A stretch of 39,314 nt of DNA from the IMG/VR virus record IMGVR_UViG_3300042196_000173, positions 1 through 39,314 of that record, one strand, 5' to 3'. The position numbers and the translations under genes were made by a program. This DNA comes from a virus. Its lineage: Duplodnaviria; Caudoviricetes. The notes under the pieces were generated by a model. That model did not search any database, had not been told where the DNA came from, and saw only the letters and a program-made list of their open reading frames with translations. Positions 908 through 37,699 of the stretch are shown here, piece after piece; within the stretch, counting starts at the first letter, position 1, and every line of letters starts with the position of its first letter.

Positions 908-1453
908 TCATGGCGGTGGTATCATTGTCGGAGTCGACAAGGAAAGTTGGAAAAGCTGGTTAAGAAACGTGCTGATTGTATCCAGACAGGTCCCCTGGCT
1001 CCAGGTGTTTGTGGTCGCTGAGATCAGCATAAAGTTTGTCGCCGATGAACAGAGGTTCCCAAGGGTTCCTCCAATTCCGATATCCACATTTTTTTGATAA
1101 TCCTGACCCGTTGCAAAACCGTAGACATAGGTATCACTGGATATTTTCTGCATCGCCGCAATGTTAGTAGCCCAGGTCGTCGTATCTATTGTAACGGATT
1201 GGGGAGGCTGGAAGCTCGGGTTAAGACCCCATAATTTAATCTGGTAGGTATGCGGGAAAAACGGGTTCACAAAAAAGGTGGTATTAAAATAGGTTGTGGT
1301 AAAAGAAATCAATGTATCTTCGACGGAGTTGGCCGTCCCCGTTCCCACGGTTACCACCGTGTACGCTTCAGCGTCGCGGACCGCTAGGCGCCCACCACCT
1401 AGGCCCATAGTTAAAAGAATGAAGGCGATTTTCCCACTTCTGAATCGCTTCAT
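908..1453 (-). CDS. Putative exported Thr-rich protein (~181 aa)
   Basis: From ATG 1453: MKRFRSGK-IAFILLTMGL...AEA|YTVV resembles a signal peptide; mature part has two Cys; overlaps the Lar-like ORF, so the start is uncertain. Confidence 0.55.
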   Translation of the reverse strand: MKRFRSGKIAFILLTMGLGGGRLAVRDAEAYTVVTVGTGTANSVEDTLISFTTTYFNTTFFVNPFFPHTYQIKLWGLNPSFQPPQSVTIDTTTWATNIAAMQKISSDTYVYGFATGQDYQKNVDIGIGGTLGNLCSSATNFMLISATTNTWSQGTCLDTISTFLNQLFQLSLSTPTMIPPP

Positions 1454-1574
1454 GGATGTCTTTTCCAGTAGGCCCTTGGGCGCGGCAATCCAAGCACTCC
1501 ACAAAAGCCATAGCCAGAGGCTTCCGGCACTTGAAAATCTCGATATCCAGAGACCCGCAGAACGGGCAGTTCAT
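1368..1574 (-). CDS. Lar-family (restriction alleviation-like) zinc-ribbon protein
   Basis: CPFCG...VECLDCRAQGP...EAIQKWENR pattern; ATG abuts the endolysin stop. Confidence 0.65.
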   Translation of the reverse strand: MNCPFCGSLDIEIFKCRKPLAMAFVECLDCRAQGPTGKDIHEAIQKWENRLHSFNYGPRWWAPSGPRR

Positions 1575-1919
1575 TCATACGACCAACCACATGACGCCTT
1601 GTGGCTTTGATGTATCGTTATCCACATGAATATGCCCATCTGCATAAATTCCGATACGCTTAAAGCCTGCCGAAATAAACGCCGAAGTGATTTTGAATCT
1701 TTGGTTTGATTCAGTGCAGGAAATATCCACCGCATGACCTGTTAAATGCGCCGAATCCTTAACGGACTGAGGAAGCGCATCATTCTGCGCTTGAGTGCGT
1801 AGGCCGCAAGTAATAAGAAAAGGTATGCCAGCAATCCCACGAGCGCGATCCAGCATCGCAACAAGCTCAACGTCAAGTCCCGCTACCTCGCTGTCTTGGA
1901 AATAGTTCCATCGATTCAC
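1575..1919 (-). CDS. Endolysin, peptidase M15 family (114 aa)
   Basis: GLR...SAHLTGHAVDI...HIHVD Zn-peptidase motifs; GTG at 1919 overlaps the upstream TGA (GTGA). Confidence 0.85.
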   Translation of the reverse strand: MNRWNYFQDSEVAGLDVELVAMLDRARGIAGIPFLITCGLRTQAQNDALPQSVKDSAHLTGHAVDISCTESNQRFKITSAFISAGFKRIGIYADGHIHVDNDTSKPQGVMWLVV

Positions 1920-2083
1920 GCGACCTGTCCCCCAGAATCTAATGGACCACCCACATCGCATATCTCTCCTGAACAGCACTCCGAACAAGTCTTGAAAACA
2001 TAGCCTAAGCCCCATGGTTTAATTTCCAGCAACCTTATTTTCCCCTCTTTGAGACAGCGTTGGCATGTTTCAGCGTCATTCAC
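1916..2083 (-). CDS. Small Zn-ribbon protein (55 aa)
   Basis: CQRC...CSEC; GTGA overlaps with both neighbours. Confidence 0.5.
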   Translation of the reverse strand: MNDAETCQRCLKEGKIRLLEIKPWGLGYVFKTCSECCSGEICDVGGPLDSGGQVA

Positions 2084-2337
2084 CGAAAATGCAGCCGCGT
2101 TAACATGTTCCAGGTATAGGCCCCTACCGCCGCCACAAAAGAGGCGATCAGGCCGATGATGATCCAACCCGCCGCATGAATGGGCTTTTCCACCTGGTTT
2201 TTGAACTCCTCCAGCCGGTTAATCCGCCCTTCGAAATTCTTGAAAATGCCTTTCTCCCACTCATCGTGATCCGTGAACTTCTGCTCCAGCCGGATCAACA
2301 TCTCATCCGAAAAACGCCTTCCGTTTTCTTCGTTCAC
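2080..2337 (-). CDS. Single-TM coiled-coil membrane protein (holin/antiholin-like)
   Basis: Charged coiled coil followed by C-terminal TM WIIIGLIASFVAAVGAYTW; just upstream of the endolysin. Confidence 0.6.
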   Translation of the reverse strand: MNEENGRRFSDEMLIRLEQKFTDHDEWEKGIFKNFEGRINRLEEFKNQVEKPIHAAGWIIIGLIASFVAAVGAYTWNMLTRLHFR

Positions 2338-2630
2338 GGCGTAAACTGTTCCAAAGCACTGATAGTGGAGGTAAAGACTGTAAACATATTCGTAAGTGTC
2401 GTCGTTGAAATGTTCACTCCAATCAAACCATCAAGATTTCTTGTATGCGTGATGGAATTGGTAGTGGTTGTGTTAATTACAATATAGCGGGTATCAATGT
2501 GAAAATTTCCTGGGGATTCTTGCCGAAACACCACGGATGTCAACCGTAATTTATCAAAGGTTTCCGTTTTAACTCCTGCGTTAACGAAACCAGAGGACAT
2601 GAGTAAGACGGCCAAATAAATTTTACGCAT
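2334..2630 (-). CDS. Signal-peptide-bearing Thr-rich protein (98 aa)
   Basis: AGGAG SD; MRKIYLAVLLMSSGFVNA|GVKT n/h/c signal-peptide pattern. Confidence 0.7.
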   Translation of the reverse strand: MRKIYLAVLLMSSGFVNAGVKTETFDKLRLTSVVFRQESPGNFHIDTRYIVINTTTTNSITHTRNLDGLIGVNISTTTLTNMFTVFTSTISALEQFTP

Positions 2631-2641
2631 AGGACTCTCCT

Positions 2642-3085
2642 TTACGGAACACTCGACATCCCGATACAAATATAATTCATTTTACCTCCTCCGAGAGAGG
2701 CACTGAAACTCGCTTTAAATCCTTCCGAGCTACTACTTGATATTCCAGATATCAAACCGCTACTCGTTGTCGATATGATGCAAACCGGACTTTCCAGATA
2801 GCTGTTAGAAAAGGTCAATTTGCAACTTGTTACAGAACCTCCGCCGATTGATATTGTTCCCGCAAAATCGCTTCCCATGACGCTTCCAGACGGAGAAGTT
2901 CCGCAATTTGAAACAGACGGAGAACCTGTTTTTGTTATAATGTGTTCTCCAAACATGATCGATTCATTGACCGAATACTTTTCCGTAGGACTCGGCGAAT
3001 CAATACCGACTTCGCTCGAAAACGAGCGAACAGAAAAACAACAAACCATCAGCCACGATAAAAATAAAGACGATTTAAAATTCAA
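2642..3085 (-). CDS. Signal-peptide-bearing fibre-tip-like module (147 aa)
   Basis: MNFKSSLFLSWLMVCCFSVRSFS|SE N-terminus; SNCGTSPS..GSDFAGTISIG..SCKLTF..PVC..NYICIG resembles C-terminal modules of phage fibres; four Cys in the mature part. Confidence 0.6.
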   Translation of the reverse strand: MNFKSSLFLSWLMVCCFSVRSFSSEVGIDSPSPTEKYSVNESIMFGEHIITKTGSPSVSNCGTSPSGSVMGSDFAGTISIGGGSVTSCKLTFSNSYLESPVCIISTTSSGLISGISSSSSEGFKASFSASLGGGKMNYICIGMSSVP

Positions 3086-4148
3086 TGATTGAAACTCCTA
3101 TACTTTGGACGCTTTCCGTACCTCCCCCAACTGCACATAATTGCAAATCAAACCAATAGGCCGTTCCTGTAGTAAGTCCCGTTAAGATTCCAGTCATCGA
3201 CATCGATTCTGAACTTGAATTATAAGGGGAGGTGGCGCGGCTAAAGTTTGTAAATCCCGTTCCTGTCGCCGCAACGCCGTTCGCGGGGGCCGACCCCGTG
3301 CCGTAGGACCAAATTCCCAACCCTCCATCACCCCCCGTGTTATTGATCGACGTTAAAGAACAAATAAATAAAATTCTCCCTGTTGTTGATGGCGTAATTG
3401 TTACCGTGCTGCCTAATCCCATCATTTTGGTCGTAGGAAACAACGACGTTGTACCCGTCGGGTTAGAAGGCGCAAAGAAACTGGCAGGAGCCGTTGACCA
3501 TGATATATTTCCAGCCCCGTCATTTTGATAAAACGATCCTTTTGCTCCCTGCGTAGAAGGAAAAGAAGTCGTAACATTATTTAGATTCACTATATTACCC
3601 GAAGAATTAACCTGGAATTGACTTGTACTTCCTACGGAAAAAAGAGAGGTTGGACTTACCGTGTTAATTCCAAAATTACCTGCATTAAAATAACTGACTC
3701 CATTCCCAGATATTAACGCACTGATGGTTCCATTGTTTCTTACGTCCAGTCTTCCTGCCGTCCCATTCTTGTAGGTAGCCATTAAGTAGCGACTAGAGTC
3801 CTTTAGGAATATCCCATCCCCTCCAATATCCGTCAATACAGTAAGGCGTTCCGTAACAGTGTTAGTTCCAACACCAATCCCCACATTTCCATTAGCATTA
3901 ACGGTCATTGTTCCACCAATGACATTAAAAACAGGAGTTGCGCCGCTTTGACCAGTTCCATTGATAGTGAACACCGTATCAACAGTTCCAGAAGACGTGT
4001 AAAAGGTAGACCCTGATTGGAGTGTATTCTGATTAAGAATACAGGTTGATCCTGGACAAGTACCTGTTGCGGAGGGGTTGGTTATCTGGCTTGCTGCCGC
4101 TGTTGAAGCGCAGAAAAAAATGGCAGCCAAAAAAGCTGGCTTCGTCAT
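3075..4148 (-). CDS. Signal-peptide-bearing tail-fibre-like protein (357 aa)
   Basis: ATGA overlap with upstream stop; MTKPAFLAAIFFCASTAAA|SQ; fibre shaft repeats NGNVGIG, GNFGINTVSP, NSSGNI, NDGAGNISW. Confidence 0.75.
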   Translation of the reverse strand: MTKPAFLAAIFFCASTAAASQITNPSATGTCPGSTCILNQNTLQSGSTFYTSSGTVDTVFTINGTGQSGATPVFNVIGGTMTVNANGNVGIGVGTNTVTERLTVLTDIGGDGIFLKDSSRYLMATYKNGTAGRLDVRNNGTISALISGNGVSYFNAGNFGINTVSPTSLFSVGSTSQFQVNSSGNIVNLNNVTTSFPSTQGAKGSFYQNDGAGNISWSTAPASFFAPSNPTGTTSLFPTTKMMGLGSTVTITPSTTGRILFICSLTSINNTGGDGGLGIWSYGTGSAPANGVAATGTGFTNFSRATSPYNSSSESMSMTGILTGLTTGTAYWFDLQLCAVGGGTESVQSIGVSIIEF

Positions 4149-5020
4149 GATTGAGTAAACCACACGCTGTATGAAATATTTGCCGAACCCGATTGTTTGA
4201 TGACAAAACCATTGCTGGAACTGGTGATATACCAGGGCTCATTGGTAAGATCGAGAACTACGGAGCCGTTGGCCAGAAGTGGAAATTGATCGCCAAAATT
4301 CGTTGCCCCATCACTAAAATTTAACGTTGTTGTGGCATCCACAGTCACCAAAATCCTAAATACGCGTACGGTCTGCGAAGCCACACCCGCTACAGGCGTG
4401 CTGATTCCGACACTCGTAACATTGAATGTGCTTGATAAGACCCCCGTCGTTTGCAGCGTTGAGAAGGACACATTCCACCGCGTTCCATCTACTTGTTGAG
4501 CGCTTACTGTGTTGGATGACCCATTAATGAAGGCAGATACCGTAGAGACGTAGACAGCATAGGGCGTAGAAAAAGAAACTGGAACTGTTCCGCTAATAGT
4601 TACCGTAGAAACGTTTGTAGTATTGACTGGCTGGCTGGCGCCATTGAATGTAACAGTGGTAAGAGCAGGAGGTGTAAACGATATGGTTCCTGTCACATTG
4701 AGTGGATTATCTGCTGTATTAACAACAGTCACCGTAGAAGCATAGGCTCCCGCAGTGCTCTGGTAGACTTGTTGAGGCGTGCCTCCAAAAGTAATTGTAG
4801 ATATATTAGTAGTGTTTACAGGCTGACTTATGCCGTTAAATGTGACCGTAGTAACATTCACTACAGTTGTGGTAGATGAACTACCGCCTCCGCCAGTGCA
4901 CCCTGAAACACACTTCACATTGACAGGATTCCGTGTCGAATTTATGACTTGGACGGAATCAAAGGCCCATCCAGTAACGGAGGTTAAGATCAAGAGCGCG
5001 GATAATTTAAGAGTACGCAT
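4145..5020 (-). CDS. Signal-peptide-bearing Thr/Ser-rich fibre/adhesin-like protein (291 aa)
   Basis: MRTLKLSALLILTSVTGWA|FDSV; internal repeat TTVTFNG(I/A)SQPVNTTN(I/V)ST twice; CVSGC motif. Confidence 0.7.
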   Translation of the reverse strand: MRTLKLSALLILTSVTGWAFDSVQVINSTRNPVNVKCVSGCTGGGGSSSTTTVVNVTTVTFNGISQPVNTTNISTITFGGTPQQVYQSTAGAYASTVTVVNTADNPLNVTGTISFTPPALTTVTFNGASQPVNTTNVSTVTISGTVPVSFSTPYAVYVSTVSAFINGSSNTVSAQQVDGTRWNVSFSTLQTTGVLSSTFNVTSVGISTPVAGVASQTVRVFRILVTVDATTTLNFSDGATNFGDQFPLLANGSVVLDLTNEPWYITSSSNGFVIKQSGSANISYSVWFTQS

Positions 5021-5273
5021 AAGTAGTACGTGCCGACCACTGAAATAGAAAAGAAGGTGTTGAATTGGGGTAACCTGTAGAAACAGGTTGGTTATCTGCA
5101 TTGTAAGTGACTTGGATAATCCTCCAGGTTGAGTCCGTTGTGAGCGTCCCTGGCTGCGCCCAACCGTGGTAGTTCAAGTTTCCGTTGGCATCGTAGTCAA
5201 ATTGGTCAATAAGGTTACTTCCCCCCAGAGTCGACACAAACGTGAACATTCCAACATCGGGAGTGCTTGCCAT
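5007..5273 (-). CDS. Small aromatic-rich virion-associated protein (88 aa)
   Basis: ATG at 5273 just after the ATP-grasp stop; YHGWAQPG..WRI..Y..F..W..R..YS pattern that I recognise from small phage proteins near fibre genes. Confidence 0.6.
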   Translation of the reverse strand: MASTPDVGMFTFVSTLGGSNLIDQFDYDANGNLNYHGWAQPGTLTTDSTWRIIQVTYNADNQPVSTGYPNSTPSFLFQWSARTTYAYS

Positions 5274-5278
5274 TAAAT

Positions 5279-6628
5279 TTAAGCAGGGGCAGGTGCGAAA
5301 GGGGTAATCGTCCTTTCCCCTGCTGAAGGGTTCGGGATGTCGGAATATCCCCATCGGCGCAACTTTAAGATGCGTTCCCATCCGTCATTAGCGCCGTCCG
5401 TATATCGGCCTCCGTTGTTGGGAACTTCTACGGATTTGAAAACTTTTTGCGATCCCCTCCAAGCTTCAAAAAGAGTCTTTCCCCTCCCCAAACATTCCCC
5501 GACAATACAGGTGGTTCCCGCTATTTCAAATTCCGTTCTCTTCCCCTTTTGCACGTCAATTGGAATAAAATCATCGCTGTATTTTCCGTTTATGCGCGTT
5601 CCACGCGTTTTCCCGTAGGTTTCTGTGGCCGCCTTTTTATCCTCAATTTCCGCCGGGTACGGCGGCACATGAAGTTTAAGAGACGACCCCCATGTATTTT
5701 TAAAGGGAATGGAAAATATTACATGTGAAACTTTATAAAAGAACTCAGAAACCGGCATTCCCAGAATAGCCACCAACGCATAGATTGCTGAATATCCTAA
5801 ACGAGGCGTGAACTCAAGGAAAAATGGTTCCTGATTTTCCTCGGAGACGATGCAGTTCACATCAATCGGACCCGTCCATCGGCTGTATTTCAGGAGAGGA
5901 AACAATTTTTTGATTGTGGCGTCCACCAGTTTTGACTGATTGCCTGGGTAGTGAGTAACCAGGCTGACTTCACACCCCGTCCGCACACCAAGTTCACCGG
6001 CAAGGAACTTCTTAGTTTCCCAGGTTGAGTTTGCAGGGTAGATTGGCTGACCACTTGAAAACCAAAGCTCTGTAGATACCTCAGCGCCTCGGATAATGTC
6101 CTGAAGAATAAAATTGTTTCCATGTTTTATGTTCCCTTCTTCCTTAGCCTGCTCCATGTATCCGAGCATGTCTTCATAGTCTTTTCCCACATACGAGCTA
6201 GATTCTGATTGATTATTGTCAATCTTGATAGCAAAAGGTCGTTTCGCTTTCTTGACAAATGCAATCGCAGCGTCAATATCTTTAAATTCAGTGGTGCTGG
6301 GTGTCCGAATTCCATATTGCGAGGCCACCTTTCCAGCCCAAGCCCTGTCCATCTCAAGCTTGTCGGCTAATGTTGAACCACCAACAACTTTCCACCCATC
6401 TTTTCGTAGTTTTTCGGCAACTTGTCCATCTCCATTTAAGTCAAAAAGGATGACATCAGGTTTCTCTTTTAGTCCTTCCTCTATAGACTCCACATGCGGG
6501 ACAAGACCAGACATGACTTCCCGAGCCCAAGGTTCCTTAATAAATATTGACACATCGGAACCTTCTCGTTGCATAATCCAGGCTAAACCCGCCGAATCCC
6601 CGCTTTTGGAATGGATTAAGATTTTCAT
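5279..6628 (-). CDS. PurD (GAR synthetase)-like ATP-grasp ligase with divergent substrate motifs
   Basis: MKILI..LAW, ADKLEMDRAW..GIRTP..F..AIAFV..PFAIKID, GAEVS, TGPIDVN, LEFTPRLG, GKTLFEA..RYTDG are colinear with PurD. Confidence 0.8.
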   Translation of the reverse strand: MKILIHSKSGDSAGLAWIMQREGSDVSIFIKEPWAREVMSGLVPHVESIEEGLKEKPDVILFDLNGDGQVAEKLRKDGWKVVGGSTLADKLEMDRAWAGKVASQYGIRTPSTTEFKDIDAAIAFVKKAKRPFAIKIDNNQSESSSYVGKDYEDMLGYMEQAKEEGNIKHGNNFILQDIIRGAEVSTELWFSSGQPIYPANSTWETKKFLAGELGVRTGCEVSLVTHYPGNQSKLVDATIKKLFPLLKYSRWTGPIDVNCIVSEENQEPFFLEFTPRLGYSAIYALVAILGMPVSEFFYKVSHVIFSIPFKNTWGSSLKLHVPPYPAEIEDKKAATETYGKTRGTRINGKYSDDFIPIDVQKGKRTEFEIAGTTCIVGECLGRGKTLFEAWRGSQKVFKSVEVPNNGGRYTDGANDGWERILKLRRWGYSDIPNPSAGERTITPFAPAPA

Positions 6629-6656
6629 TGTAATTCTAGCCTATTCATGGTACACT
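6628..6656 (+). promoter_or_regulatory. Sigma70-type promoter for HNH-1
   Basis: TTGTAA(6628-33)-17 bp-TACACT(6651-56) with extended -10 TG; ATG at 6665 makes the transcript nearly leaderless. Confidence 0.65.
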
Positions 6657-6664
6657 TAGCTTGC

Positions 6665-7126
6665 ATGATTAAAGACGACATTATTAAAAAGTTCTGGACA
6701 TACGTCAAAAAAACTCGAACCTGTTGGATGTGGCGTGGGAAACGCCGATACGGAAAAATATGTACTGGAAAAGGAAAGAGTGAATCTTCTCATAGAATTT
6801 CTTGGGAAATTCATAATGGAAAAGTTCCAGAAGGAATGTGGGTTCTTCACAAATGCGACAGTGGTCGATGCATCAGACCTTCCCATCTTTTTCTTGGAAC
6901 CTATAAAGACAATATCAACGATATGCTTCAAAAAAGAAGAAATGTAAGAGGAGAAAAAGTCGGAACTTCTAAACTTACTAATAAAGCAGTTAAAGAAATT
7001 AGGTCCAAATATAAAAAATATAGTCGAGAATTTAATCATCGTTATTTTTCCGAAAAGTTTGGAGTTTCCGTTTCTGCGGTACATTTTGTAATCAAAGGAA
7101 GAATGTGGAAACACATAGGAGGCTAA
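6665..7126 (+). CDS. Free-standing HNH homing endonuclease with C-terminal HTH (HNH-1)
   Basis: CWMWRG..YG..SHRISW..VLHKCD..CIRPSHLFLGT..N; AT-rich; antisense to the late operon. Confidence 0.9.
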   Translation: MIKDDIIKKFWTYVKKTRTCWMWRGKRRYGKICTGKGKSESSHRISWEIHNGKVPEGMWVLHKCDSGRCIRPSHLFLGTYKDNINDMLQKRRNVRGEKVGTSKLTNKAVKEIRSKYKKYSREFNHRYFSEKFGVSVSAVHFVIKGRMWKHIGG

Positions 7127-7137
7127 AATGTTTAACT

Positions 7138-8073
7138 TCATTGTGGGTTCTCTGGTAATTGTGACCTGCGTTGCAATCCTTGTGAAATTAGCGAATTCAG
7201 AAGAGCAACAAGACCAGGATTAGAAGCCAATCTCGTTCCTGCGCCTAAACCTGTCGCCGCCGCACCTTGAATAGCAGGAGAAAATAATGGTGCTAAAGCT
7301 TGGCCGATTCCAGGAACAAACATCATTCCCGTTTTTACCGTTGCTGTTTTTCCAGTAGACGTTAGAGGAAATGGCCTTCTTAAAGCCTGATTTCGTATTC
7401 CTGCTTGATATATCTGATCTCCTTTCCTTATAAGACGGCTACCCTTGGCAATTGCGTCTGCCTCATCACGCATCTTAAAGATTTCATCTTTGACATAACG
7501 TCCTGATCTCGCCAAAGCATCTACAGCTTTCCTATAAGTCAAACCCTCTGATGGTTCCAGCTTTCCTCCACCAGATAGAATCTCTCTAGCTTTATCAACA
7601 ATCTGCTCAGGCTTGTACATCCCCTCAAATACACTGGTTCCTTTTGGCATAGCTTCCATAGCTCTTCCGTAAAACGGTTTTGCTGCTTGTTTACCTGGAC
7701 CAAATATATTCTTAGCTGATTGAAAACCTCTAGCTAGTGTTCCCTTTGGGCTTCCTACAAGTGATTCCAATTGTTCTCCAAATCCTCTTACAGCAGGACT
7801 AGCCGCTTTCATAAGCGGTCCCATAGCTTCTGCTCCTACCATTGATCCAAGCCCTAACGGAGTAAATGTAGGAGGCATCGTTTTTGATAAAACATTCATC
7901 GCCCCTTTTCCAAACCGTGTTGGAATTTGACCCTTCGCTACATCCAGCGTAGCCCCTAACATCTCAGACGGAATCCTTGCAAATCCCATTGCCTTTTTAC
8001 CAAAGGACTGCTTTAAATCTTCCGTTGTCACTTCATACACTCCCTGATCCGTTGTTACACGATACTTAGACAT
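7138..8073 (-). CDS. Putative ejection (internal virion) protein
   Basis: Gly/Ala-rich helical protein; last of four such genes downstream of the fibres, the usual podophage position. Confidence 0.55.
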   Translation of the reverse strand: MSKYRVTTDQGVYEVTTEDLKQSFGKKAMGFARIPSEMLGATLDVAKGQIPTRFGKGAMNVLSKTMPPTFTPLGLGSMVGAEAMGPLMKAASPAVRGFGEQLESLVGSPKGTLARGFQSAKNIFGPGKQAAKPFYGRAMEAMPKGTSVFEGMYKPEQIVDKAREILSGGGKLEPSEGLTYRKAVDALARSGRYVKDEIFKMRDEADAIAKGSRLIRKGDQIYQAGIRNQALRRPFPLTSTGKTATVKTGMMFVPGIGQALAPLFSPAIQGAAATGLGAGTRLASNPGLVALLNSLISQGLQRRSQLPENPQ

Positions 8074-9344
8074 TACTGTACCCTCTCGACCTTCAAAACT
8101 TTACCGCCCTGAAATGTCGCCCCAACAGGTGGGACCTGACCTTGTCTGCCAATTGCCTTAAATCTTTCTGATAACTCTTGACCATGTGGTGAAATTATCT
8201 GACGTTGAGAAGGAAGTCCACCCATTACATTGCGTTGTTGGTATTGCAATGCTTGGAGACGTGAATTGAGAAGTTCGTTAATTTGTTGAATAGCTCCCTG
8301 AGCCTGATTAGGCGTTAAATCCTGGCTTAAAACACTCATCCATTTTCCGATTTCCTGATCAGTTCCAGCCGTTCCCTTAAAGACAGTTGCCAGTTCTCCG
8401 CCTAGAGCGTTCAGAGTAGCTTGCAATCTGATAATGTTAGGGTCGTTAGTCTGAGCCCTTAATTTATTAAGAGGAACATTTAAAAATCTTTCATTGGTAT
8501 TAGCTACACGCTGATAGGAATCCAAAGCTGAATTGGCATGACCTAATGCTGTATTGAGAGAAAGTGCATTGAGTCCGAGTTTCCCAGTCGCTAAACTTTT
8601 TGCCATTGTTTCATTAACCTTCGTCGCATATGATTGGAACGGTTCTTTTTTTCCAAGTTGCTTAGGGACTTGATTCGCTAACCGTGTTGCAACTGTCCTA
8701 TCTCTGAAACTTAACGTCCAAGGATCGATCCTTCCTTCATACATCCCAATAGCCAAATCTCTGTCATCCTGAGATGCAGTGTCCCATGTTACCTGTCCTT
8801 TCTCTGTACCGCCAACGTCGGTAGGACTTCCACGACTTACCAACTGTTGTAACCGTTGCATCCGCAGACGTTCCATGGGGTCGTTCTGTTTCATATAGGA
8901 AGCAATCGCCGTTTGCGGGTCTAACTGCATCATCAAAGCTTGAATTTGACGGGTATTGTCACGCGCTGGGCCTCCCATTCCAGAAACAGGTTGACCTGGC
9001 CCCTGCGTAGGGATCGGCTGAGGCATCTGAACATCCTGTCCGATATTTCCACCTGCTGACATGGGTTGACCTGGAGGGACTTGATACATGGACTGTTGTT
9101 GAGGTGTCCCAGCCGGAGGAAGCGGCGGACCTTGCTGAGGGTCGCCCTGCGTGGTCATCTGCTGAATAAGTTGCTGGAGGATTTGCTGTCTTTTTTTCTG
9201 TTGGATCGCCTCGCCAATTCCCGCCAATCCCTGCCCTAACCCGTATCCAAGACCCGCAATATCCTGGTTCATCTGTTGGCGGTTACGATTTTTCTCCTGT
9301 GCCGCCTGCATGAACATTTCCCACGGGAACGATAAATCAGCCAC
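8073..9344 (-). CDS. Putative ejection (internal virion) protein
   Basis: Gln/Pro/Gly-rich low-complexity N-half and helical C-half; coupled to neighbours. Confidence 0.6.
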   Translation of the reverse strand: MADLSFPWEMFMQAAQEKNRNRQQMNQDIAGLGYGLGQGLAGIGEAIQQKKRQQILQQLIQQMTTQGDPQQGPPLPPAGTPQQQSMYQVPPGQPMSAGGNIGQDVQMPQPIPTQGPGQPVSGMGGPARDNTRQIQALMMQLDPQTAIASYMKQNDPMERLRMQRLQQLVSRGSPTDVGGTEKGQVTWDTASQDDRDLAIGMYEGRIDPWTLSFRDRTVATRLANQVPKQLGKKEPFQSYATKVNETMAKSLATGKLGLNALSLNTALGHANSALDSYQRVANTNERFLNVPLNKLRAQTNDPNIIRLQATLNALGGELATVFKGTAGTDQEIGKWMSVLSQDLTPNQAQGAIQQINELLNSRLQALQYQQRNVMGGLPSQRQIISPHGQELSERFKAIGRQGQVPPVGATFQGGKVLKVERVQ

Positions 9345-9924
9345 CGAATCCTCCTACACCCATCCGAGCCCCTGGCCTCAACTCAGGAAACATCTGGTAG
9401 ATCTTTTGGATGGCATTCGCTTGCTGGGAGGCAGGAGCCTGGGCCTGTCCACCCCCTTGCGGCATCATCCGCATATATTGGAGAGCCTTGGAAACAGAAC
9501 TAGGGCCTGCCCCTGACATCGGGTTAAGCGGAGAGGACATCCCCCCAGGTCCCGTAGTAGAACCCGCCATTCCCATATTAGGTGATGACATACCCGATGC
9601 ACCATAAGAACCACCAGGACCTCCAAACATACCCCCAGGAGCCCCTGCAAAATGACCAATTCCTCCAGCCCCTAATCCAGAACCGAAATTTATTCCTCCA
9701 CCCTTTAGAGAATAGGGATCAGTTGTTCCTGTTCCAGAAAGTCCCGCTCCCGTAGCGGCTCCCATACCAGCCCCAATCGGCCCTCCTGTAATGAATCCCC
9801 CAACACCACCTTCCAGACCTCCTGTAGACGTTCTTCCTAATTGATTTTTGCGACCGATAACCTCAGAAAGACCCCCTGTCGGAACAGCAAAAAGTCCTCT
9901 TAAACCTTCCTCCCACCAACTCAT
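9337..9924 (-). CDS. Gly-rich putative ejection/pilot protein
   Basis: Glycine-zipper-like GGVGGFITGGPIGAGMGAATGAG; position among ejection genes. Confidence 0.6.
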   Translation of the reverse strand: MSWWEEGLRGLFAVPTGGLSEVIGRKNQLGRTSTGGLEGGVGGFITGGPIGAGMGAATGAGLSGTGTTDPYSLKGGGINFGSGLGAGGIGHFAGAPGGMFGGPGGSYGASGMSSPNMGMAGSTTGPGGMSSPLNPMSGAGPSSVSKALQYMRMMPQGGGQAQAPASQQANAIQKIYQMFPELRPGARMGVGGFGG

Positions 9925-11156
9925 GTATGTTTCTCCATAGGGTTGTCGTAGAAAAGCATAAACTTTACGCGGAGATCATGTTTCACCTTTTTAGCCAGCA
10001 TCCAGAACGATTCCTCGTAAAGATCAACTGCTTTGACTGGATCAGATTCGGAAATTACTCTGTCATAAAACAGGGTACGCCATGCATCCCAATCCGTGTG
10101 AACAAATTCAGCGGCCAAGACTACAAATTTTCCAATAACAAAATACTCAAAGAACTTCCAGAACCGCTTAAAGAACGCCTGAAACAGGTGGTCGTGAAGC
10201 CTTTTGACTTCATACTTCCCAAGTACCTGATGTTTCGCCATCGCTGTACAAATCCAAGTAGCTTTGTAGGCTTGGGCCCCACCACTTAAAAGACTACCCA
10301 GCCCTTGCGCAGAACCCGTAGCCATCCCTAACATACCTTGCGCCCCAGATGGATTTCCCGTCTCCGCCAACTGTTTGGCTAACAGCTCCTGCATGGCAAA
10401 ATCAATGTATTTGTTCGCGCTGGACGCTGATTGTCCCGTATACTGGTTTCCTAGTCCTTGCATCCCGCCGTACTGCCCTAACCCGTACTGCATGGCCTCT
10501 CCTGGTATTCCCAGCATCGTCCCCTGGTTCGGAATAGAGTAACCGCTTAGAATAGACTGCTGAAAAGGAATAGTTTGGTTGGCCACCGCACTTCCTAAGC
10601 CTGACTGAAACGCCCCCGATCCCGGCGAGATTCCAAGATTGTTGAATTGCCCCAAAAGCTGCTGTCCCGCCTGACCTGAAGGCGAATACTCTTGGGCGAT
10701 TTGACTTGGAATACCGGAAACCTGAGCCTGTAAATTCTGAAGGTTCTTGCTGTAGAGGTCCTGCGTCTGTTGAAGCTGTTTATTAAATAAGTCCGACGCA
10801 TTTTTCTGCTGAAAGCTTTGTACATCGCCGGAATAAGCCGTTGGAACGTAACTTTGGGCCATTGTTTGCAATTCGGAGCCTGTTAATGGATTCCATCCCT
10901 CCGGGTGCGCCTGTTCCGTATAGGAAGGGATCACCTCGTTTTTTAAGAAACTGTTAATTTCATCCACCGTAGGAGCCCGTCCTGTTTGCTGTTGGAAAAC
11001 ATTGGAAAATTTGTTCCCCGCTGTATTCAAGAACCCGGGAGTCGTATTCGGACCCCAATACCAATTAGTCCCGGGTCCCCCTCGATAACCTTGGAACGCC
11101 TGCATGAGTTGTTGGTAATCTGGGTCTTGTGTCACATCAAAATTAGACGTTGGCAT
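9921..11156 (-). CDS. Putative ejection protein with a distinct C-terminal domain
   Basis: Gln/Gly-rich body, GMATGSAQGLGSLLSGG segment, then an aromatic domain beginning WICTAM. Confidence 0.6.
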   Translation of the reverse strand: MPTSNFDVTQDPDYQQLMQAFQGYRGGPGTNWYWGPNTTPGFLNTAGNKFSNVFQQQTGRAPTVDEINSFLKNEVIPSYTEQAHPEGWNPLTGSELQTMAQSYVPTAYSGDVQSFQQKNASDLFNKQLQQTQDLYSKNLQNLQAQVSGIPSQIAQEYSPSGQAGQQLLGQFNNLGISPGSGAFQSGLGSAVANQTIPFQQSILSGYSIPNQGTMLGIPGEAMQYGLGQYGGMQGLGNQYTGQSASSANKYIDFAMQELLAKQLAETGNPSGAQGMLGMATGSAQGLGSLLSGGAQAYKATWICTAMAKHQVLGKYEVKRLHDHLFQAFFKRFWKFFEYFVIGKFVVLAAEFVHTDWDAWRTLFYDRVISESDPVKAVDLYEESFWMLAKKVKHDLRVKFMLFYDNPMEKHT

Positions 11157-11167
11157 AAGATTCTCCT

Positions 11168-12286
11168 CTACAGTTCTGCATCCGCCGTGAAATGTCCCTC
11201 TCCGAAAGTGTCCGTGCTTATTCCGTCAACTACTAGGCAGCCATTGGTCGAATTGTTTCCATTGGTAACAGTCGTTATTCCCCCGCTCATGTCCCAGCTT
11301 CCTGCGGTCCCGGTAAATGTATAGAAAATGACCGTCGGAGCAACTCGTTTTGTAACATGGTAAGGAATCCATCCGACAACATTGCTACCACTTACGTTAA
11401 ATGGAAGTGATATTCTATTAGTCGTTGTACTGGTAGCTGGAACTGTCGAAATATCGTAACTTTTCTCATAATATCTCTGACACAATGCCAGGTCTTCACC
11501 AAATGGGCGAGGAAAATAATCAACATAGATAGAATTCACGACCGCCATAGCTGAGTCAATGTAAACAATTCCTAGTGGCGGCGCTGAAGGAGAATAATAA
11601 TTGTAAAAATAAAGAAATGCAGGAGTTGCCGAAATGGTCTTGGTCACTGTTAATTGCTGCCAATTTCCGTCTCCTGCATGAGCAGAGGACTGCGTTATTG
11701 ATCCGTCATTAATTCCGATCCGAATTCCCGACAAAGATGTTTTTACCCATTGAGAAAATGTGACGGTTTTTCCTGCATAATCCAGATAGTTTTCAACCTT
11801 TTGCACAATACCCAAACTTGTTGCAGTTCCGATATTAGTAATGTCTATTTTTGCCGCGTATGTTCCATCATGAATAGTGGTTGATTCACGCGATATAACG
11901 CAAGCACTTGATCCAGACATTCCCTCATAAAATAAGCGGTCTGCCGTAAAAGTTCCCGCCGTACTCAAACTAAAACTCGTCCCCCTTTGCCAGATTTCAA
12001 AACCGCCATTGATAAGAATATTGGAGTAACCTGCCGAGCCCTGCACCTGGCCAAAAGTTGCGGAATCTCCTGAAGCTGTTCCATTCCCCAAACCAGTTAA
12101 TTTAAATCCCCCCATCACCGCATTTCCACTGAGAGTAAGAGTAGTCACTTTCACATTATCCCAGGTGGTCGTTCCCGCATCTACATTGTTAATCAAGTTG
12201 ATGATATTATTGAATTCAGAATTCAAAGCCGAGGATGTCAGAATTTGATTAGTTGCCCACGTTGTAATCCGGTTAATAAATGACAT
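11168..12286 (-). CDS. Tail fibre with N-terminal anchor and carbohydrate-binding-like module
   Basis: LNSEFNNI anchor; MGGFKLTGLGNGTASGDSAT shaft; NILINGGFEIWQRGTS ... DLALCQRYYEKSY ... HFTADAEL are common fibre motifs; no signal peptide. Confidence 0.8.
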   Translation of the reverse strand: MSFINRITTWATNQILTSSALNSEFNNIINLINNVDAGTTTWDNVKVTTLTLSGNAVMGGFKLTGLGNGTASGDSATFGQVQGSAGYSNILINGGFEIWQRGTSFSLSTAGTFTADRLFYEGMSGSSACVISRESTTIHDGTYAAKIDITNIGTATSLGIVQKVENYLDYAGKTVTFSQWVKTSLSGIRIGINDGSITQSSAHAGDGNWQQLTVTKTISATPAFLYFYNYYSPSAPPLGIVYIDSAMAVVNSIYVDYFPRPFGEDLALCQRYYEKSYDISTVPATSTTTNRISLPFNVSGSNVVGWIPYHVTKRVAPTVIFYTFTGTAGSWDMSGGITTVTNGNNSTNGCLVVDGISTDTFGEGHFTADAEL

Positions 12287-12301
12287 GCAATTTCTCCATT
12301 C

Positions 12302-14026
12302 TTATAAACAAGTCGCCGTTCTATCACTAGGACGAACAAAAGAATGAATAGTCCCCGTAGAAATGCAGATTGCATCCGTCGTGCAATCCGAGCAGGGAAT
12401 AATCCATCCTGGAGTCGTCGTCCATCCTTGCATCGTTGCTAAACTCGCGGGGGTTACAACCAGCATACCCGCTGTAAACTGTCCTGAAACAGTTCCCGAA
12501 GAAGCGGTCAGCGTCGGCGTGTTAAGGGGAGTCGTCACATTCAATATGCCGACATCGTTATAAAGGGTAGAATCCGCGCCTGACACCTGATGCGTGATGA
12601 CAAAATCGCCTCCATCGCCTATCTGCAATGCGGTTCCTACACCTGCATTGACTGTTACTGAACTTGTAAATGTTTTTGAAGCCGTAATTGTTTGCGTTGA
12701 ATTGAGTAAATCAACATTGGAAGACAAATTAGAATCTGACAACGTGCCGACAACGCTCGATGAAAGACTTATATTAGAAACTGTGACTGTTGTTCCCAAT
12801 ATTTGCATGGGTCCATCAGGCAATGACGGGTAAATTGCTGTATAGACCGTCGTGCTATCCACGTGAAGATTCATAGAATTTACGTTGTTGTGGTCCCCAA
12901 TAAAAGCCTGCTGCGAACCCCCTGATCCAGTAATTCCACTGCCAATGAGTATCTGACTGCTTGCAGACGGTCTATTTAAGTACCCTATTGCAATGGATGT
13001 ATTGATAGTGGGAGTCGTAGAATAGGTATTAAAACCAATGAAACTGTTGTAATTTCCAGTAGTGTTGTAATACCCTGCCGAGGTTCCGATAAATAGATTT
13101 CCTGTACCTGATGTCGTGTTGAAACCTGCTGATGATCCTACAGCGTAATTGTCAGTTGCCAAAGCGGAATTCATGCTGTTCAAGCAACTGGTTCCGAGAC
13201 AGGCATTTCCATTGCCATTGGTTGCATCCTGCATACAGGAAACCCCAAAACAGGAGTTAAAATTTCCCTGCATGGAGGGCATGGCACTTGAACCCATAGT
13301 TGTATTGGCTTGACCCGCCGTCAGATTGGCCAGCGCATGATCACCGAAGGCCGTATTGTCTTTTCCTATCGTGTCGCTTCTCAGGGCATAATCTCCAAAC
13401 GCCGTATCATCTTCATTGGCCGTTTTACTGATACAAGCATCGTACCCCATACATAAAGTATTCTGATAGGGGTGGCTTATAAAGACACCATCACCCGCAT
13501 CGGTCGCAATCAAAAAATTCCTTTGAACGCCTATATTTGGAGCCGTCATCATTACACCATTAGTCGAATAATGAACCAGAGGCAAACTAACCGTACCATT
13601 GACATCTAACGGATAATTAGATGCCAGTTGATTAATCCCCACATACCCATTACTCGAAACAAATAAAGGAATACCTAACAATGCGCCTGTAGAACTGTAA
13701 TGCTCCATTTGAAAACTGTTGCTACTGACTTGATTGCACGTAAACTGCCATCCCGATGCTGTCGGATCATAAATAGAACCCGTAAACGTGTTACGGTTAA
13801 ACCCAATTGCAGGAACTCTTGTATTTTCAGAAATCCCGATTGATTGAATGAAATTTGCAGTAACACTTGTGCTCGTGGAACCTCCAGACACCGTTCCGGT
13901 AGTGACCAGAATTGCATTATTGCTGGCAGGAAGTCCCTCCATAATGGCCCGCGCTCCCCATACGGGAATCCCTGCTAAAATAAACAGGAGACTAAGAAAA
14001 TTGCGTAGAAGTAATCGCCCCGTCAT
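12302..14026 (-). CDS. Signal-peptide-bearing tail fibre/adhesin with YadA-head-like beta-roll repeats (574 aa)
   Basis: GGAG 6 nt before ATG 14026; MTGRLLLRNFLSLLFILAGIPVWG|ARA; NGYVGIN..LDVNG shaft; ~14-aa repeats TAFG..AL, NYAVG, NLFIG, NSFIG; C-terminal CSDCTTDAICISTGT. Confidence 0.75.
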   Translation of the reverse strand: MTGRLLLRNFLSLLFILAGIPVWGARAIMEGLPASNNAILVTTGTVSGGSTSTSVTANFIQSIGISENTRVPAIGFNRNTFTGSIYDPTASGWQFTCNQVSSNSFQMEHYSSTGALLGIPLFVSSNGYVGINQLASNYPLDVNGTVSLPLVHYSTNGVMMTAPNIGVQRNFLIATDAGDGVFISHPYQNTLCMGYDACISKTANEDDTAFGDYALRSDTIGKDNTAFGDHALANLTAGQANTTMGSSAMPSMQGNFNSCFGVSCMQDATNGNGNACLGTSCLNSMNSALATDNYAVGSSAGFNTTSGTGNLFIGTSAGYYNTTGNYNSFIGFNTYSTTPTINTSIAIGYLNRPSASSQILIGSGITGSGGSQQAFIGDHNNVNSMNLHVDSTTVYTAIYPSLPDGPMQILGTTVTVSNISLSSSVVGTLSDSNLSSNVDLLNSTQTITASKTFTSSVTVNAGVGTALQIGDGGDFVITHQVSGADSTLYNDVGILNVTTPLNTPTLTASSGTVSGQFTAGMLVVTPASLATMQGWTTTPGWIIPCSDCTTDAICISTGTIHSFVRPSDRTATCL

Positions 14027-14213
14027 TATCGACTCCAATTAAATAGGTGTGCAGACCGTCCGGTGTCGTGACCAAAATTCCCGTTGGAAATGACAATAAC
14101 CCTGAATTCACGTTATTTAAAACATTCGTCAAATTATCAAACTCCCGGTTGAGGCTGAAGGGCGTCACGGATTCCTTGCTTGTCCAGTGTGTTAATCTCT
14201 GGAAGTTAGGCAT
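13992..14213 (-). CDS. 73-aa mini-fibre/adaptor: fibre anchor plus short beta module
   Basis: N-terminus paralogous to 11168-12286; C-terminal GILVTTPDG..YLIGVDNDGAITST; start overlaps the nozzle stop. Confidence 0.7.
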   Translation of the reverse strand: MPNFQRLTHWTSKESVTPFSLNREFDNLTNVLNNVNSGLLSFPTGILVTTPDGLHTYLIGVDNDGAITSTQFS

Positions 14214-15748
14214 CAGACCATGATCTCCTCGCTCAGATAGACGGGATGCACCCTGAAACTTTGCGATGCTTGGTCGTTTCGGAATTGCATCTGAATAGAA
14301 AATACACTCCCTGCATTTACCAGAAGCGTTTGATCGCGCAAGGTAGTAGAGCCTGCCAACCGGCTAACATCAAGCGTGAATTCACTATCCAAGTCAGCTC
14401 CTCCCTGGGCCTGCGTCAGAGAGGTACTATAGGACACATCAGTCAACCCGTTATACCCGTAGCTGAATGTCAACTGACCGAGGGTTTCAGATTCCAGAGG
14501 GATGATCGCAGACCGTGGGAACACCTGTTTTTGATCGGGGTTAAGAAGCACCGAGATGGTCCCGTAACCATCAATCGTCCCCCCTGAAACAGACGCATCC
14601 GTGGTTCCAATGTCCTGCTCAAAAACTTCCCCCGCGTAGTCACCCGTGACCATCAAAATAGAATGGTCCGGGGTGGTCCTGGTATCAATAACCGGTTCCA
14701 GGATATTCGCATTGATATTGATAAATTTCGATACCCAAATGTTCACCTGATAGTCGTAGACCAGTACCGTGTCATGGGTCGTCGCCGATGCTGAGGACAT
14801 GGAAATCCACACTTGGTTTCTTGTCGGATAAACCCTGACCACGGAAAAAGGAAGTCGTGAAATGTTCATGCTGTCTAAAACTGTTTGGATATTGGATCCT
14901 GTGCGCGGGTCTGAGACATCATTCACGGAGGCCCCGTCATAGATATAAACATGGTTATTGGTCCCAAGAAACACAATCCTTCCATCAGGCAGAAGGTCCA
15001 CGCAATGTCTCCCCGAACATCCATTTCCGACAATCAACTGCGACAGGGGAGCCAGCGTCACCGTCCCTGATACCGAGACCGACTGCGTAAAAAGAACCCC
15101 GATGGATTGCTGCTTAAAAATGTAGATATTTTGGTCCTTTTCAAGGAGGGCCGTCACCTTGTCGCCATCGGAAGCGCGGAATTCTATAAAGGAAGCCGCC
15201 GGCCACGTATTCGGGTCTGACACGTTGGACCAGTAAACACGCGAAGGTGTCGCCGCAATGCCTGAGATAAACATGAAGTTGTTTGCCACCGCCACAATGT
15301 TCCCCACCGGAGGGCTCCCCGCCAGGGCCGACACATTCCCGGTCCCCGTCCATTGAAGCGGCGTATCGGGAGTGGCCCCCCCGCAAATGGCCACGATATT
15401 GTTGAGACTGGCGAAGGTGTGCTGGTTATTCTGTCCTGCCGTGATCGTGGCACTGCCTGTGATGTCATTAAAAGTGGTGGAGAGATTGGCAGAGTTGTAT
15501 ATCTTCGTTCCTGCCGTCACCAGAAGGTAGCGAGTCCCCGAATTGATGCGCCAATCAAAAATACCATGGATAGCGGCCCCAGAAGCCAAGGGCGAGGCAT
15601 TTAAAATGACGCTACCATTACGCTTAACGAGGTCATTGTGGACGATATTCACATTCTGGGAATCGGTTAATGAGTTAGACGGAAGCGTCCAGGAGCTTTC
15701 CTTGGTGTTCCACCCGCCAATAAATCCAAAAGGTCCCAAAGGAGGCAT
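14213..15748 (-). CDS. Tail nozzle / DNA-stabilisation protein (P22 gp10 / tail tubular B-like)
   Basis: GGWNT..NV..LVKRNG N-terminus; RVYWSNVSDPNTW; beta-propeller-like; follows the adaptor. Confidence 0.75.
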   Translation of the reverse strand: MPPLGPFGFIGGWNTKESSWTLPSNSLTDSQNVNIVHNDLVKRNGSVILNASPLASGAAIHGIFDWRINSGTRYLLVTAGTKIYNSANLSTTFNDITGSATITAGQNNQHTFASLNNIVAICGGATPDTPLQWTGTGNVSALAGSPPVGNIVAVANNFMFISGIAATPSRVYWSNVSDPNTWPAASFIEFRASDGDKVTALLEKDQNIYIFKQQSIGVLFTQSVSVSGTVTLAPLSQLIVGNGCSGRHCVDLLPDGRIVFLGTNNHVYIYDGASVNDVSDPRTGSNIQTVLDSMNISRLPFSVVRVYPTRNQVWISMSSASATTHDTVLVYDYQVNIWVSKFININANILEPVIDTRTTPDHSILMVTGDYAGEVFEQDIGTTDASVSGGTIDGYGTISVLLNPDQKQVFPRSAIIPLESETLGQLTFSYGYNGLTDVSYSTSLTQAQGGADLDSEFTLDVSRLAGSTTLRDQTLLVNAGSVFSIQMQFRNDQASQSFRVHPVYLSEEIMV

Positions 15749-16669
15749 TTAGTTTCCTGTCACAATCGGATAATTTGAAGGGAACTGAATCCAGCGACTC
15801 CGGGAGATGCTGTCAATCGACCCCAAAATCGGTTGATAATCAGTGGCCTGATGGTACTCTTTCATCATTCCCGCCACACGTGACTCAAACTTCGCATTCC
15901 AGGAATTCGCAATGTCGAATTTCCGAAGGAAGGCAAACCCAACCGCCGTAGCGCCGAAAATAATAACTTGGACATACTTATTGGGAATGCTTGGGAGGTC
16001 TGTTGAATTCACCATATCCACAGGACGCTTTTTAGTGCGAAACTCAAAAAGGCGGGCATCGGTTGGAAAGGGATACGGCATAAACACCTGATTTCCAGAG
16101 GAATCCACGCCAAACATCATGTAGGCATACGGGGCATTGGTGGATTCGACAAGAGGATTAATTAAATCGATGGTTCGGAAGTCACACTGGATGAGTTTTA
16201 TAGGCGTGTTCCAGTTTCGGACATCAATAATCTCATCGGCTGTGGAAGAAAGACTGTAAAAGAACTTACGAAGCGTGTAAGTCAGTCCAGAGGCATTGGT
16301 AGTTGGCGCATAGGCTGTCCCAAGCGTCAGAGCGGTGGCACTTACCTGGGCAGAAACTTTATACCAGTCATTGGCACTTGAAATCTGAATAAAATAGGTT
16401 CCATCACCCTGCGTGGAGGTAAAAGTTGTTCCAGAGCCGGTTAGAGATGTACTTCCTGAAGCAACGGAAACCGTTCCGGTCTGATAGTCAGGAACCGTAA
16501 CAATTGTTTCCCGACCCGACATGAACGACCACGGCCAACGGGCGCAAAGGTCCTGCTGGACATAATTTATCCAGCGGTTTACGTTGGTTTGGTTGGCTGC
16601 GTCTGAAGAATCAAGACCGGTGTGAGCGTAAACGTCATTTTGGATGTCTGCAAACGTCAAATTTGCCAA
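15749..16669 (-). CDS. Head-tail adaptor (tail tubular A-like) with inserted beta domain
   Basis: LTFADIQNDV..RWINYVQ..WPWSF; PYPFP; PSIPNKY..IIFGA; insert GTVSVASGSTSLTGSGTTF. Confidence 0.75.
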   Translation of the reverse strand: MANLTFADIQNDVYAHTGLDSSDAANQTNVNRWINYVQQDLCARWPWSFMSGRETIVTVPDYQTGTVSVASGSTSLTGSGTTFTSTQGDGTYFIQISSANDWYKVSAQVSATALTLGTAYAPTTNASGLTYTLRKFFYSLSSTADEIIDVRNWNTPIKLIQCDFRTIDLINPLVESTNAPYAYMMFGVDSSGNQVFMPYPFPTDARLFEFRTKKRPVDMVNSTDLPSIPNKYVQVIIFGATAVGFAFLRKFDIANSWNAKFESRVAGMMKEYHQATDYQPILGSIDSISRSRWIQFPSNYPIVTGN

Positions 16670-16693: not shown

Positions 16694-16999
16694 TTACGTC
16701 AAAACCTGACGAGCCCAGGTGGTCGCCTTGGACACATTGGCGTCAAAACTGACAAACAACCCATTGGGGAATACCAGGCCCACACCGGGATTTTCTTGTG
16801 TCCACGCGCTCGCCGTTCCCGTGATGGCATACACGAAAGTCCCCAAACTGGAAGTCCCATCAAAAAGAGAAAGCGTCCCTGCGCTTCCCCCCGACAAAAA
16901 GGCGGCTTTGTAGAGCGCTTGAGGCTTTCCTGAAGTATTGGCGACCCCTGAGGATGCGTACACCTGATAACTGACTTCTGGACCATATTGAAAATACAT
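16694..16999 (-). CDS. Small beta-rich virion protein
   Basis: LSLFDG..GLVFPNGLFV pattern; position before the adaptor. Confidence 0.55.
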   Translation of the reverse strand: MYFQYGPEVSYQVYASSGVANTSGKPQALYKAAFLSGGSAGTLSLFDGTSSLGTFVYAITGTASAWTQENPGVGLVFPNGLFVSFDANVSKATTWARQVLT

Positions 17000-17655
17000 T
17001 AAACTCCCACCTTCTCTTTCTTGGGATGCTTTTTCATCGTGTGCATCCGTATACCCTGCTGGCTGGCATTGTGATAATCACATTTCTCACACTTAAATTC
17101 TGACCCCTCCAAACTAGATGGTTCCTGCGGCACGGGAACCTGAACAGGAACCTCCTGCATTCGCACAGGGGCATACTTCGTCAAATCCACAAAAGGGACA
17201 GGTGCAGGACGAAGCTCCAGGCTCCCACGGCTATTGCGAATAGGGGTATAGGTATCAAAGGCCGAGCGTTCATCCTTAGCGCAGACCACTGGTACAGGAA
17301 TCCGTTCATTGCGAGGAATTGTTTCCTCTATATATCGCTCCACGTCATCCCACATCTGCCGTCCTGGTTCAGTGTTGTAGTCAATTTTAAATCCAAGCAC
17401 TTGTCGCCTCTCAACCACCTCTTTGGCTCCCGCCTGAATGGGAGGATAACGAAAAGTCAGGTACATCGGCTCGCAGAGATGACGTATCTCATGCGGGATA
17501 TTGGCGTCCACATCGGGTTCCCAGGGTTTCTTAAGTTCTTTTCCCTCTGGGACATCACGAAAAAACCACTCGTCAGGAAGGCCTTTGATGGAAATCAGCT
17601 TATCGATCCTTTTCGGATTATTATTAAAATGATCAACAATTCTCAGCAAAGGCAT
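16999..17655 (-). CDS. Hypothetical protein with C-terminal C2H2 zinc finger
   Basis: FKCEKCDY..GIRMHTMKKH; TAAGGGGG SD-like sequence. Confidence 0.65.
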   Translation of the reverse strand: MPLLRIVDHFNNNPKRIDKLISIKGLPDEWFFRDVPEGKELKKPWEPDVDANIPHEIRHLCEPMYLTFRYPPIQAGAKEVVERRQVLGFKIDYNTEPGRQMWDDVERYIEETIPRNERIPVPVVCAKDERSAFDTYTPIRNSRGSLELRPAPVPFVDLTKYAPVRMQEVPVQVPVPQEPSSLEGSEFKCEKCDYHNASQQGIRMHTMKKHPKKEKVGV

Positions 17656-21166: not shown

Positions 21167-21167
21167 T

Positions 21168-37689: not shown

Positions 37690-37699
37690 GAGATTCACC

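What the first reader, a model, noticed from the sequence alone, without database searches (positions are those of the whole stretch)
908..14026. Fibre-like late proteins with Sec signal peptides: candidate 'exported fibre' assembly system
Seen: once starts are corrected using SD and stop/start coupling, six late genes open with basic-hydrophobic-small-residue signal peptides. They are 14026 MTGRLLLRNFLSLLFILAGIPVWG|, 5020 MRTLKLSALLILTSVTGWA|, 4148 MTKPAFLAAIFFCASTAAA|, 3085 MNFKSSLFLSWLMVCCFSVRSFS|, 2630 MRKIYLAVLLMSSGFVNA| and 1453 MKRFRSGKIAFILLTMGL..AEA|. Four of them are consecutive. The 574-aa and 357-aa products carry clear fibre motifs (GNVGIG shaft, YadA-head-like beta-roll), and two more look fibre/adhesin-like. 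Five have paired or multiple Cys (CPGSTC, CVSGC, CSDC). None has the virion anchor seen in the 11168-12286 fibre. Established: tailed phages assemble in the cytoplasm and fibres normally lack signal peptides. Inference: these proteins are exported, mature in the periplasm (disulfides, possibly host glycosylation) and join the virion at or after lysis. Alternatively they act as secreted receptor decoys or host-surface adhesins.
Basis: partly seen in the sequence, partly recalled or inferred. Interest (0 to 1): 0.9.

Follow-up and report, generated by a model that had tools for sequence, protein, structure and literature searches.

The report
Phage fibres carrying export signals
This short-tailed phage, likely of Elusimicrobiota bacteria, starts six late proteins, four of them fibre- or fibre-tip-like, with predicted secretion signals that its head and core tail lack, so these parts likely fold outside the cytoplasm and would join the virus particle at lysis, a route I found described for no tailed phage.

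Summary
Observation largely confirmed. The window is a P22/SU10-type podovirus genome. All six N-termini pass my signal-peptide rule (no SignalP here); chance rates are 1-2%. Capsid 0/25, portal 0/12 and anchored fibres 0/17 in fetched loci are negative. Homologues support the 574-, 357-, 147- and 181-aa signals; the 98-aa protein has none found. Corrections: the 181-aa protein is a lysis-region protein, not shown to be fibre-like, and cysteine pairing is convincing only for the 147- and 181-aa families. New here: a 73-aa stand-alone anchor gene precedes the 574-aa fibre; the 147-aa protein is a free lectin-like fibre tip; a fibre module is shared with secreted Elusimicrobiota proteins; three relatives put a signal-like start on the tail adaptor itself; cultured Myxococcus phages Mx8 and Mx9 encode signal peptide plus fibre anchor, so the question is bench-testable. 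Export is well supported (about 0.9); joining the virion is inferred (about 0.6). No shared docking sequence was found, and the phage keeps one ordinary fibre. This scan reported the same theme on other genomes; my literature searches found no description.

The parts
12302..14026 (-). 574-aa fibre/spike-like protein with predicted Sec signal (cleavage near residue 24), GIG shaft, repeat region 180-368, C-terminal CxxC motif
   Evidence: signal; tailspike/fibre matches; P0218 shares the post-signal segment; the C-terminal motif recurs in signal-bearing fibres
13992..14213 (-). 73-aa signal-less protein: fibre anchor paralogue plus a 28-aa module; candidate cytoplasm-made stub for the 574-aa protein (inferred)
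   Evidence: matches anchors of relatives, E 9e-7 to 1e-4; 28-aa module 75% identical to L053 117-aa protein, which also precedes a signal-bearing spike
11168..12286 (-). 372-aa ordinary anchored tail fibre, no signal (internal control)
   Evidence: phrog_4492 tail fiber E 5e-35; anchored fibres 0 of 17 signal-positive
14213..15748 (-). nozzle/hub-slot protein, no signal (control)
   Evidence: phrog_3287; 0 of 82 homologues signal-positive; the nozzle label rests on position and size
15749..16669 (-). SU10-type adaptor, no signal here
   Evidence: PF24175 above cut-off
5007..5273 (-). 88-aa signal-less protein of an unnamed viral family, directly upstream of the exported cluster; candidate socket (inferred)
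   Evidence: atlas: viral clusters, score 0.95, no Pfam; next gene is signal-positive for 5 of 6 stand-alone members
4145..5020 (-). 291-aa signal-bearing Thr/Val-rich stalk with a C-terminal domain that occurs free and signal-less in a relative
   Evidence: residues 194-288 match L098 112-aa protein, 36% identity, E 6e-17
3075..4148 (-). 357-aa signal-bearing fibre with GIG shaft; residues 27-64 (3957-4070) are a module shared with 753 library proteins
2642..3085 (-). 147-aa signal-bearing free fibre-tip domain with four invariant Cys; predicted H-type-lectin/tailspike-tip beta-sandwich
   Evidence: (pLDDT 80)
2334..2630 (-). 98-aa signal-bearing protein, no Cys, no homologue found
   Evidence: no hit
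908..1453 (-). 181-aa signal-bearing protein after the endolysin; conserved family with two invariant Cys; not shown to be fibre-like
1368..1574 (-). Lar-family ORF overlapping the 1453 start by 86 nt
   Evidence: PF14354 31.7 bits, cut-off 28.6

Best explanation
These genes likely encode Sec-exported virion appendages: the 574-, 357-, 291- and 147-aa fibre-type proteins are predicted to be cleaved and folded in the periplasm and would attach to cytoplasm-built particles when the inner membrane fails at lysis, likely through small signal-less partners (the 73-aa anchor stub and the 88-aa protein). Shown: signal-like N-termini above chance, their absence from head, portal, nozzle and anchored fibre, fibre-type domains, conserved gene pairing. 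Inferred: Sec transport and cleavage, disulfides, glycosylation, the partners' role, virion binding. Likely reason: fibre modules exchanged with the host's own secreted adhesins need extracytoplasmic folding or modification. The 98- and 181-aa proteins are likely exported too, but are not shown to be fibres.
For: Controls: capsid 0/25, portal 0/12, anchored fibre 0/17, nozzle 1/62, adaptor 2/32 signal-positive among distinct genes in fetched loci; nozzle homologues 0/82. Near relatives have a signal-bearing fibre or tailspike between nozzle and ejection genes behind a short signal-less gene (L002, L042 with PF12708, L053) and more after the ejection genes. The 357-aa module hits 753 representatives; 99 of the best 150 pass the rule. 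In 14 of 14 viral contigs displayed, the module lies in a signal-bearing gene, mostly beside recognisable podovirus tail and ejection genes (two were sources of the pattern). In L101 and L097 (by rule) and L103 (by eye) PF24175 begins at residue 33-37 behind a signal-like leader: a core virion part. Mx8 p64 and Mx9 p14 carry a 28-residue leader before an anchor 53% identical to the signal-less fibre N-terminus of phage ppBjS10J-1, with no in-frame start between; 0 of 8 Mx8 core genes are positive. The 147-aa domain has four invariant Cys in 13 of 13 aligned copies and a tailspike-tip/H-lectin-like model. No integrase was found among the ORFs scanned. SU10 long fibres are a proximal plus a distal trimer (PMC9509320, passages). 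Free tailspikes attach to P22 heads in lysates (recalled).
Against: No virion proteomics or structure. The four slot-1 exported proteins share no N-terminal sequence (best 7.4 bits), so no conserved docking peptide. The 291-aa N-terminus lacks the NPxTGxxD-type motif found after the signal in three relatives with an 88-aa-type gene. The phage keeps a signal-less anchored fibre, and relatives L046, L051, L004, L048 have no exported slot-1 gene in the DNA held. The 147-aa tip has no stalk or anchor. The module also occurs in cellular secreted proteins. Cys density (1.01 v 0.71 per 100 aa) and even counts (27/40 v 18/31) barely separate exported from cytoplasmic virion proteins, and disulfides are reported in ordinary siphovirus tails (PMC13576161, abstract start and passages). 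Short signal-less genes are common in operons, and the 18 of 22 pairing was hand-picked.
Confidence: 0.6

Rival explanations
1. The proteins are exported but never join the virion: they act as soluble receptor decoys or lectins released at lysis, or as surface adhesins of the infected cell, borrowed from the host's secreted MAT-like fibres.
For: Free 147-aa tip without stalk; no shared docking sequence; module shared with Elusimicrobiota proteins; part of the 357-aa shaft is 59-79% identical to other GIG-repeat proteins, several with signals, one named Bacteroidia; an ordinary fibre is retained.
Against: Position in the fibre slot, coupled to an anchor-only gene; signal-like leaders on the adaptor of relatives and on the anchor-bearing fibre of Mx8/Mx9; no integrase found, so lasting surface display in a lysogen is less likely.
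Confidence: 0.27
2. The leaders tether the proteins to the inner membrane, or export goes with a wider extracytoplasmic step, so that tails or whole particles are finished at the membrane or in the periplasm before lysis.
For: Adaptor and nozzle-slot genes of L101, L097, L103 carry leaders, which is hard to square with simple late decoration, since these parts close the DNA-filled head.
Against: In this genome adaptor and nozzle have no leader; the leaders have cleavage motifs and short hydrophobic cores; no extra translocation gene was recognised.
Confidence: 0.1
3. The signals are artefacts of start choice in overlapping, T-rich sequence and the real proteins start downstream.
For: Alternative ATG at codon 29 of the 574-aa gene; 1453 lacks an SD site and overlaps a Lar ORF; my rule has false positives.
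Against: Chance rate 1-2%; signal-blind tiling picks five starts; the 291-, 357-, 147- and 98-aa genes have no SD-supported start near the cleavage site; homologues carry their own, different signals.
Confidence: 0.03

Closest known systems
Kuravirus SU10 tail (adaptor gp11, long fibre gp12/gp13, nozzle gp17, short fibre gp16; PMC9509320, passages read)
   Same: SU10-type portal and adaptor families (PF23899, PF24175); a fibre built from a proximal anchoring trimer and a separate distal trimer is a precedent for stub plus distal fibre.
   Different: No export signal appears in the passages I read; here the distal-type proteins carry predicted Sec signals. No sequence match of the window's fibres to solved structures.
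Bdellovibrio MAT (mosaic adhesive trimer) fibres (PMC10769870, passages read)
   Same: Phage-fibre-like, mosaic, signal-peptide-bearing proteins with lectin-like tips; shows that such fibres can be exported and fold.
   Different: MATs are chromosomal, displayed on the cell, and share a ~130-aa domain after the signal; the window's proteins are phage late genes with unrelated N-termini.
Myxococcus phages Mx8 (p64 NP_203478, p66) and Mx9 (p14 WFG54121, p15)
   Same: Cultured podovirus relatives (capsid 28% identical) whose fibre genes begin with signal-like leaders.
   Different: Their leader sits directly on the anchor domain; the window splits anchor and exported body into two genes. I found no paper noting these leaders.
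H-type lectins and C-terminal sandwiches of tailspikes and pyocin fibres (2ccv, 7eea, 6cxb, 4mtm)
   Same: Best fold matches of the 147-aa model: Foldseek E 3.5e-3, probability 1.0 for 2ccv; VIA Z 7.8, rmsd 2.2, 67 aligned for 7eea and Z 6.6, rmsd 2.5, 70 aligned for 2ccv.
   Different: Scores are middling; here the domain is a free exported protein with four invariant Cys. Sugar binding untested.
Filamentous phages and phage-encoded envelope proteins (coat proteins, spanins, exclusion lipoproteins; recalled)
   Same: Phage proteins that use the host Sec pathway.
   Different: These are membrane-assembled non-tailed virions or non-virion envelope proteins, not fibre-type parts of a tailed particle.

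Membership tests
Sec/SPI signal peptide | basic n-region, hydrophobic h-region, small-residue cleavage motif | tested here: met
   6 of 6 by my rule; chance 4/211 and 14/1216
Sec/SPI signal peptide | conserved in homologues | tested here: inconclusive
   supported for 574 aa (1 homologue), 357-aa module (99/150), 147-aa domain (7 of 11 carriers by rule), 181 aa (2 homologues); no full-length homologue for 291 or 98 aa
Sec/SPI signal peptide | SignalP score; transport and cleavage in vivo | not testable with these tools
   no SignalP, no experiment
Canonical podovirus tail fibre/tailspike | N-terminal virion-anchoring domain on the same chain | tested here: not met
   none of the six matches the 372-aa anchor; the anchor sits alone in the 73-aa gene
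Canonical podovirus tail fibre/tailspike | fibre shaft and receptor-binding-type domains | tested here: met
   574 aa, 357 aa, 147 aa; not shown for 98 and 181 aa
Canonical podovirus tail fibre/tailspike | trimer present in the virion | not testable with these tools
   needs proteomics or cryo-EM
MAT superfamily | signal peptide plus mosaic fibre body | tested here: met
MAT superfamily | conserved ~130-aa beta-rich domain right after the signal | tested here: inconclusive
   the window proteins share no post-signal domain by BLAST/phmmer; no Bdellovibrio MAT sequence was compared
MAT superfamily | display on the cell surface | not testable with these tools
   experiment needed
H-type lectin fold (147 aa) | six-stranded beta-sandwich like HPA/discoidin | tested here: inconclusive
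   model pLDDT 80; E 3.5e-3; Z 6.5-6.6, tied with tailspike tips
YadA-head beta-roll (574 aa) | YadA head repeats / left-handed beta-roll | tested here: inconclusive
   no Pfam hit at E 1; PHROG tailspike match only; not modelled
Elusimicrobiota phage (host) | CRISPR spacer, prophage or isolation evidence | not tested
   only indirect: 6 of 10 hand-picked cellular-type carriers of the module are named Elusimicrobia; 0 of 10 phage-type carriers have an informative name

The most novel reading that the evidence does not exclude
A broad group of podoviruses, including this one and cultured Mx8/Mx9, builds part of the tailed virion outside the cytoplasm: fibres here, and even the adaptor and nozzle in relatives, pass through the host Sec pathway, take on host disulfides and glycans, and are united with cytoplasmic heads through dedicated stub proteins at the membrane or at lysis.
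Probability: 0.55. Interest if true: 0.92.

Novelty: categorically new. Interest (0 to 1): 0.8.

Why it matters
Tailed phages are taken to be built wholly in the cytoplasm; a 2026 preprint states in passing that the P22 tailspike has no signal peptide, presumably because it needs no export (10.64898/2026.09.13.751334, figure legend). If exported fibres join the particle, virion assembly has a second compartment, phages can use host disulfide and glycosylation machinery, and fibres can be swapped directly with bacterial secreted adhesins. It would also mean that annotation pipelines mislabel such genes as host secreted proteins. Mx8 and Mx9 grow on Myxococcus xanthus, a non-pathogenic lab model, so the question can be tested now.

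Tried and rejected
No relatives by single-protein scans of IMG/VR with the ATP-grasp or the 88-aa protein; no full-length homologue of the 147-aa protein at 80-258 aa. Single-sequence AlphaFold of the 147-aa protein was poor (pLDDT 44) and its Foldseek search gave nothing significant. No PDB sequence match for the 574- or 372-aa proteins or for profiles of the 88-aa family and two small jelly-roll-like families, so my recalled likeness to the RcGTA head-spike base is unsupported. Mx9 p15 versus the 89-aa family: not significant. Programmed frameshift fusing the 73-aa anchor to the 574-aa ORF: considered and set aside, since relatives L042 and L053 overlap by only 4 nt and P0218 has its own signal. 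Promoter/terminator scan: fewer sites than shuffles. Glycosylation motif: 14 patterns tried after seeing the sequences; with the module masked, [VI]S[ST]xx[VI] is 33 v 11.1 expected in 40 signal-bearing proteins and 3 v 5.0 in 31 signal-less virion proteins, but S[ST][AG]T is enriched in both sets (56 v 17.7; 14 v 5.1), so this stays a lead. General Cys pairing does not discriminate. Literature: ten searches, seen as listings, gave no paper on signal peptides in tailed-phage fibres; the library lacks most subscription papers, including older Mx8 work, and I opened no supplements.
Full report
Context. The window is the whole record, one 39,314-nt contig. It encodes a terminase (29336-30817), a P22/SU10-type portal (25153-27189), a major capsid protein (21448-22404, phrog_9953), an SU10-type adaptor (15749-16669), a nozzle-slot protein (14213-15748), four ejection-slot genes, an M15 endolysin and a holin-like gene: a podovirus. 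I found no integrase among the ORFs scanned.

Noticed in passing
window 17643-20206, 27852-29417, 5279-6628: Three glycosyltransferases, a B12-binding radical SAM enzyme and a GARS-like ATP-grasp ligase sit among the late genes; glycosyltransferases and the ATP-grasp gene keep their places in relatives (L001, L002, L046, L051). Possible virion modification.
   Followed up: partly
L101 7152-7907 and 4670-7147 (-); L097 106-852; L103 755-1507: Relatives whose tail adaptor (PF24175), and in L101 the nozzle-slot protein, begin with signal-like leaders.
   Followed up: partly
L089 21782-22855 and 23170-23823 (Mx8 p64, p66); L109 3001-4077 and 4085-4810 (Mx9 p14, p15): Cultured myxophages with signal-like leaders on the anchor-bearing fibre and on the next fibre-like gene.
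   Followed up: yes
L105 9498-9749 / 9746 onward; L102 9129-9783; L103 9516-10114: An 81-83-aa signal-less family gene is followed by an exported protein with an NPxTGxxD-type motif just after the signal; candidate docking pair.
   Followed up: partly
window 1368-1574: Lar-family zinc-ribbon ORF inside the lysis cassette, overlapping the 181-aa gene by 86 nt.
   Followed up: partly
window 6647-7126 and 22501-23139 (+): Two HNH endonuclease genes inserted against the late operon's direction.
   Followed up: no
window 36757-37689 and 37676-37984 (+): Two early-region genes with hydrophobic N-termini and no convincing family hit; the second looks like a cleavable signal.
   Followed up: no
window 16694-16999, 20314-20769, 20888-21437: Small signal-less Ser/Thr-rich genes between capsid and adaptor, probably head decoration; L098, L096 and L103 have signal-positive genes at similar positions.
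   Followed up: no
L046, L047, L050: One 102-kb metagenome contig holds the same phage region three times, probably an assembly concatemer of the 38.7-kb L005 genome.
   Followed up: no
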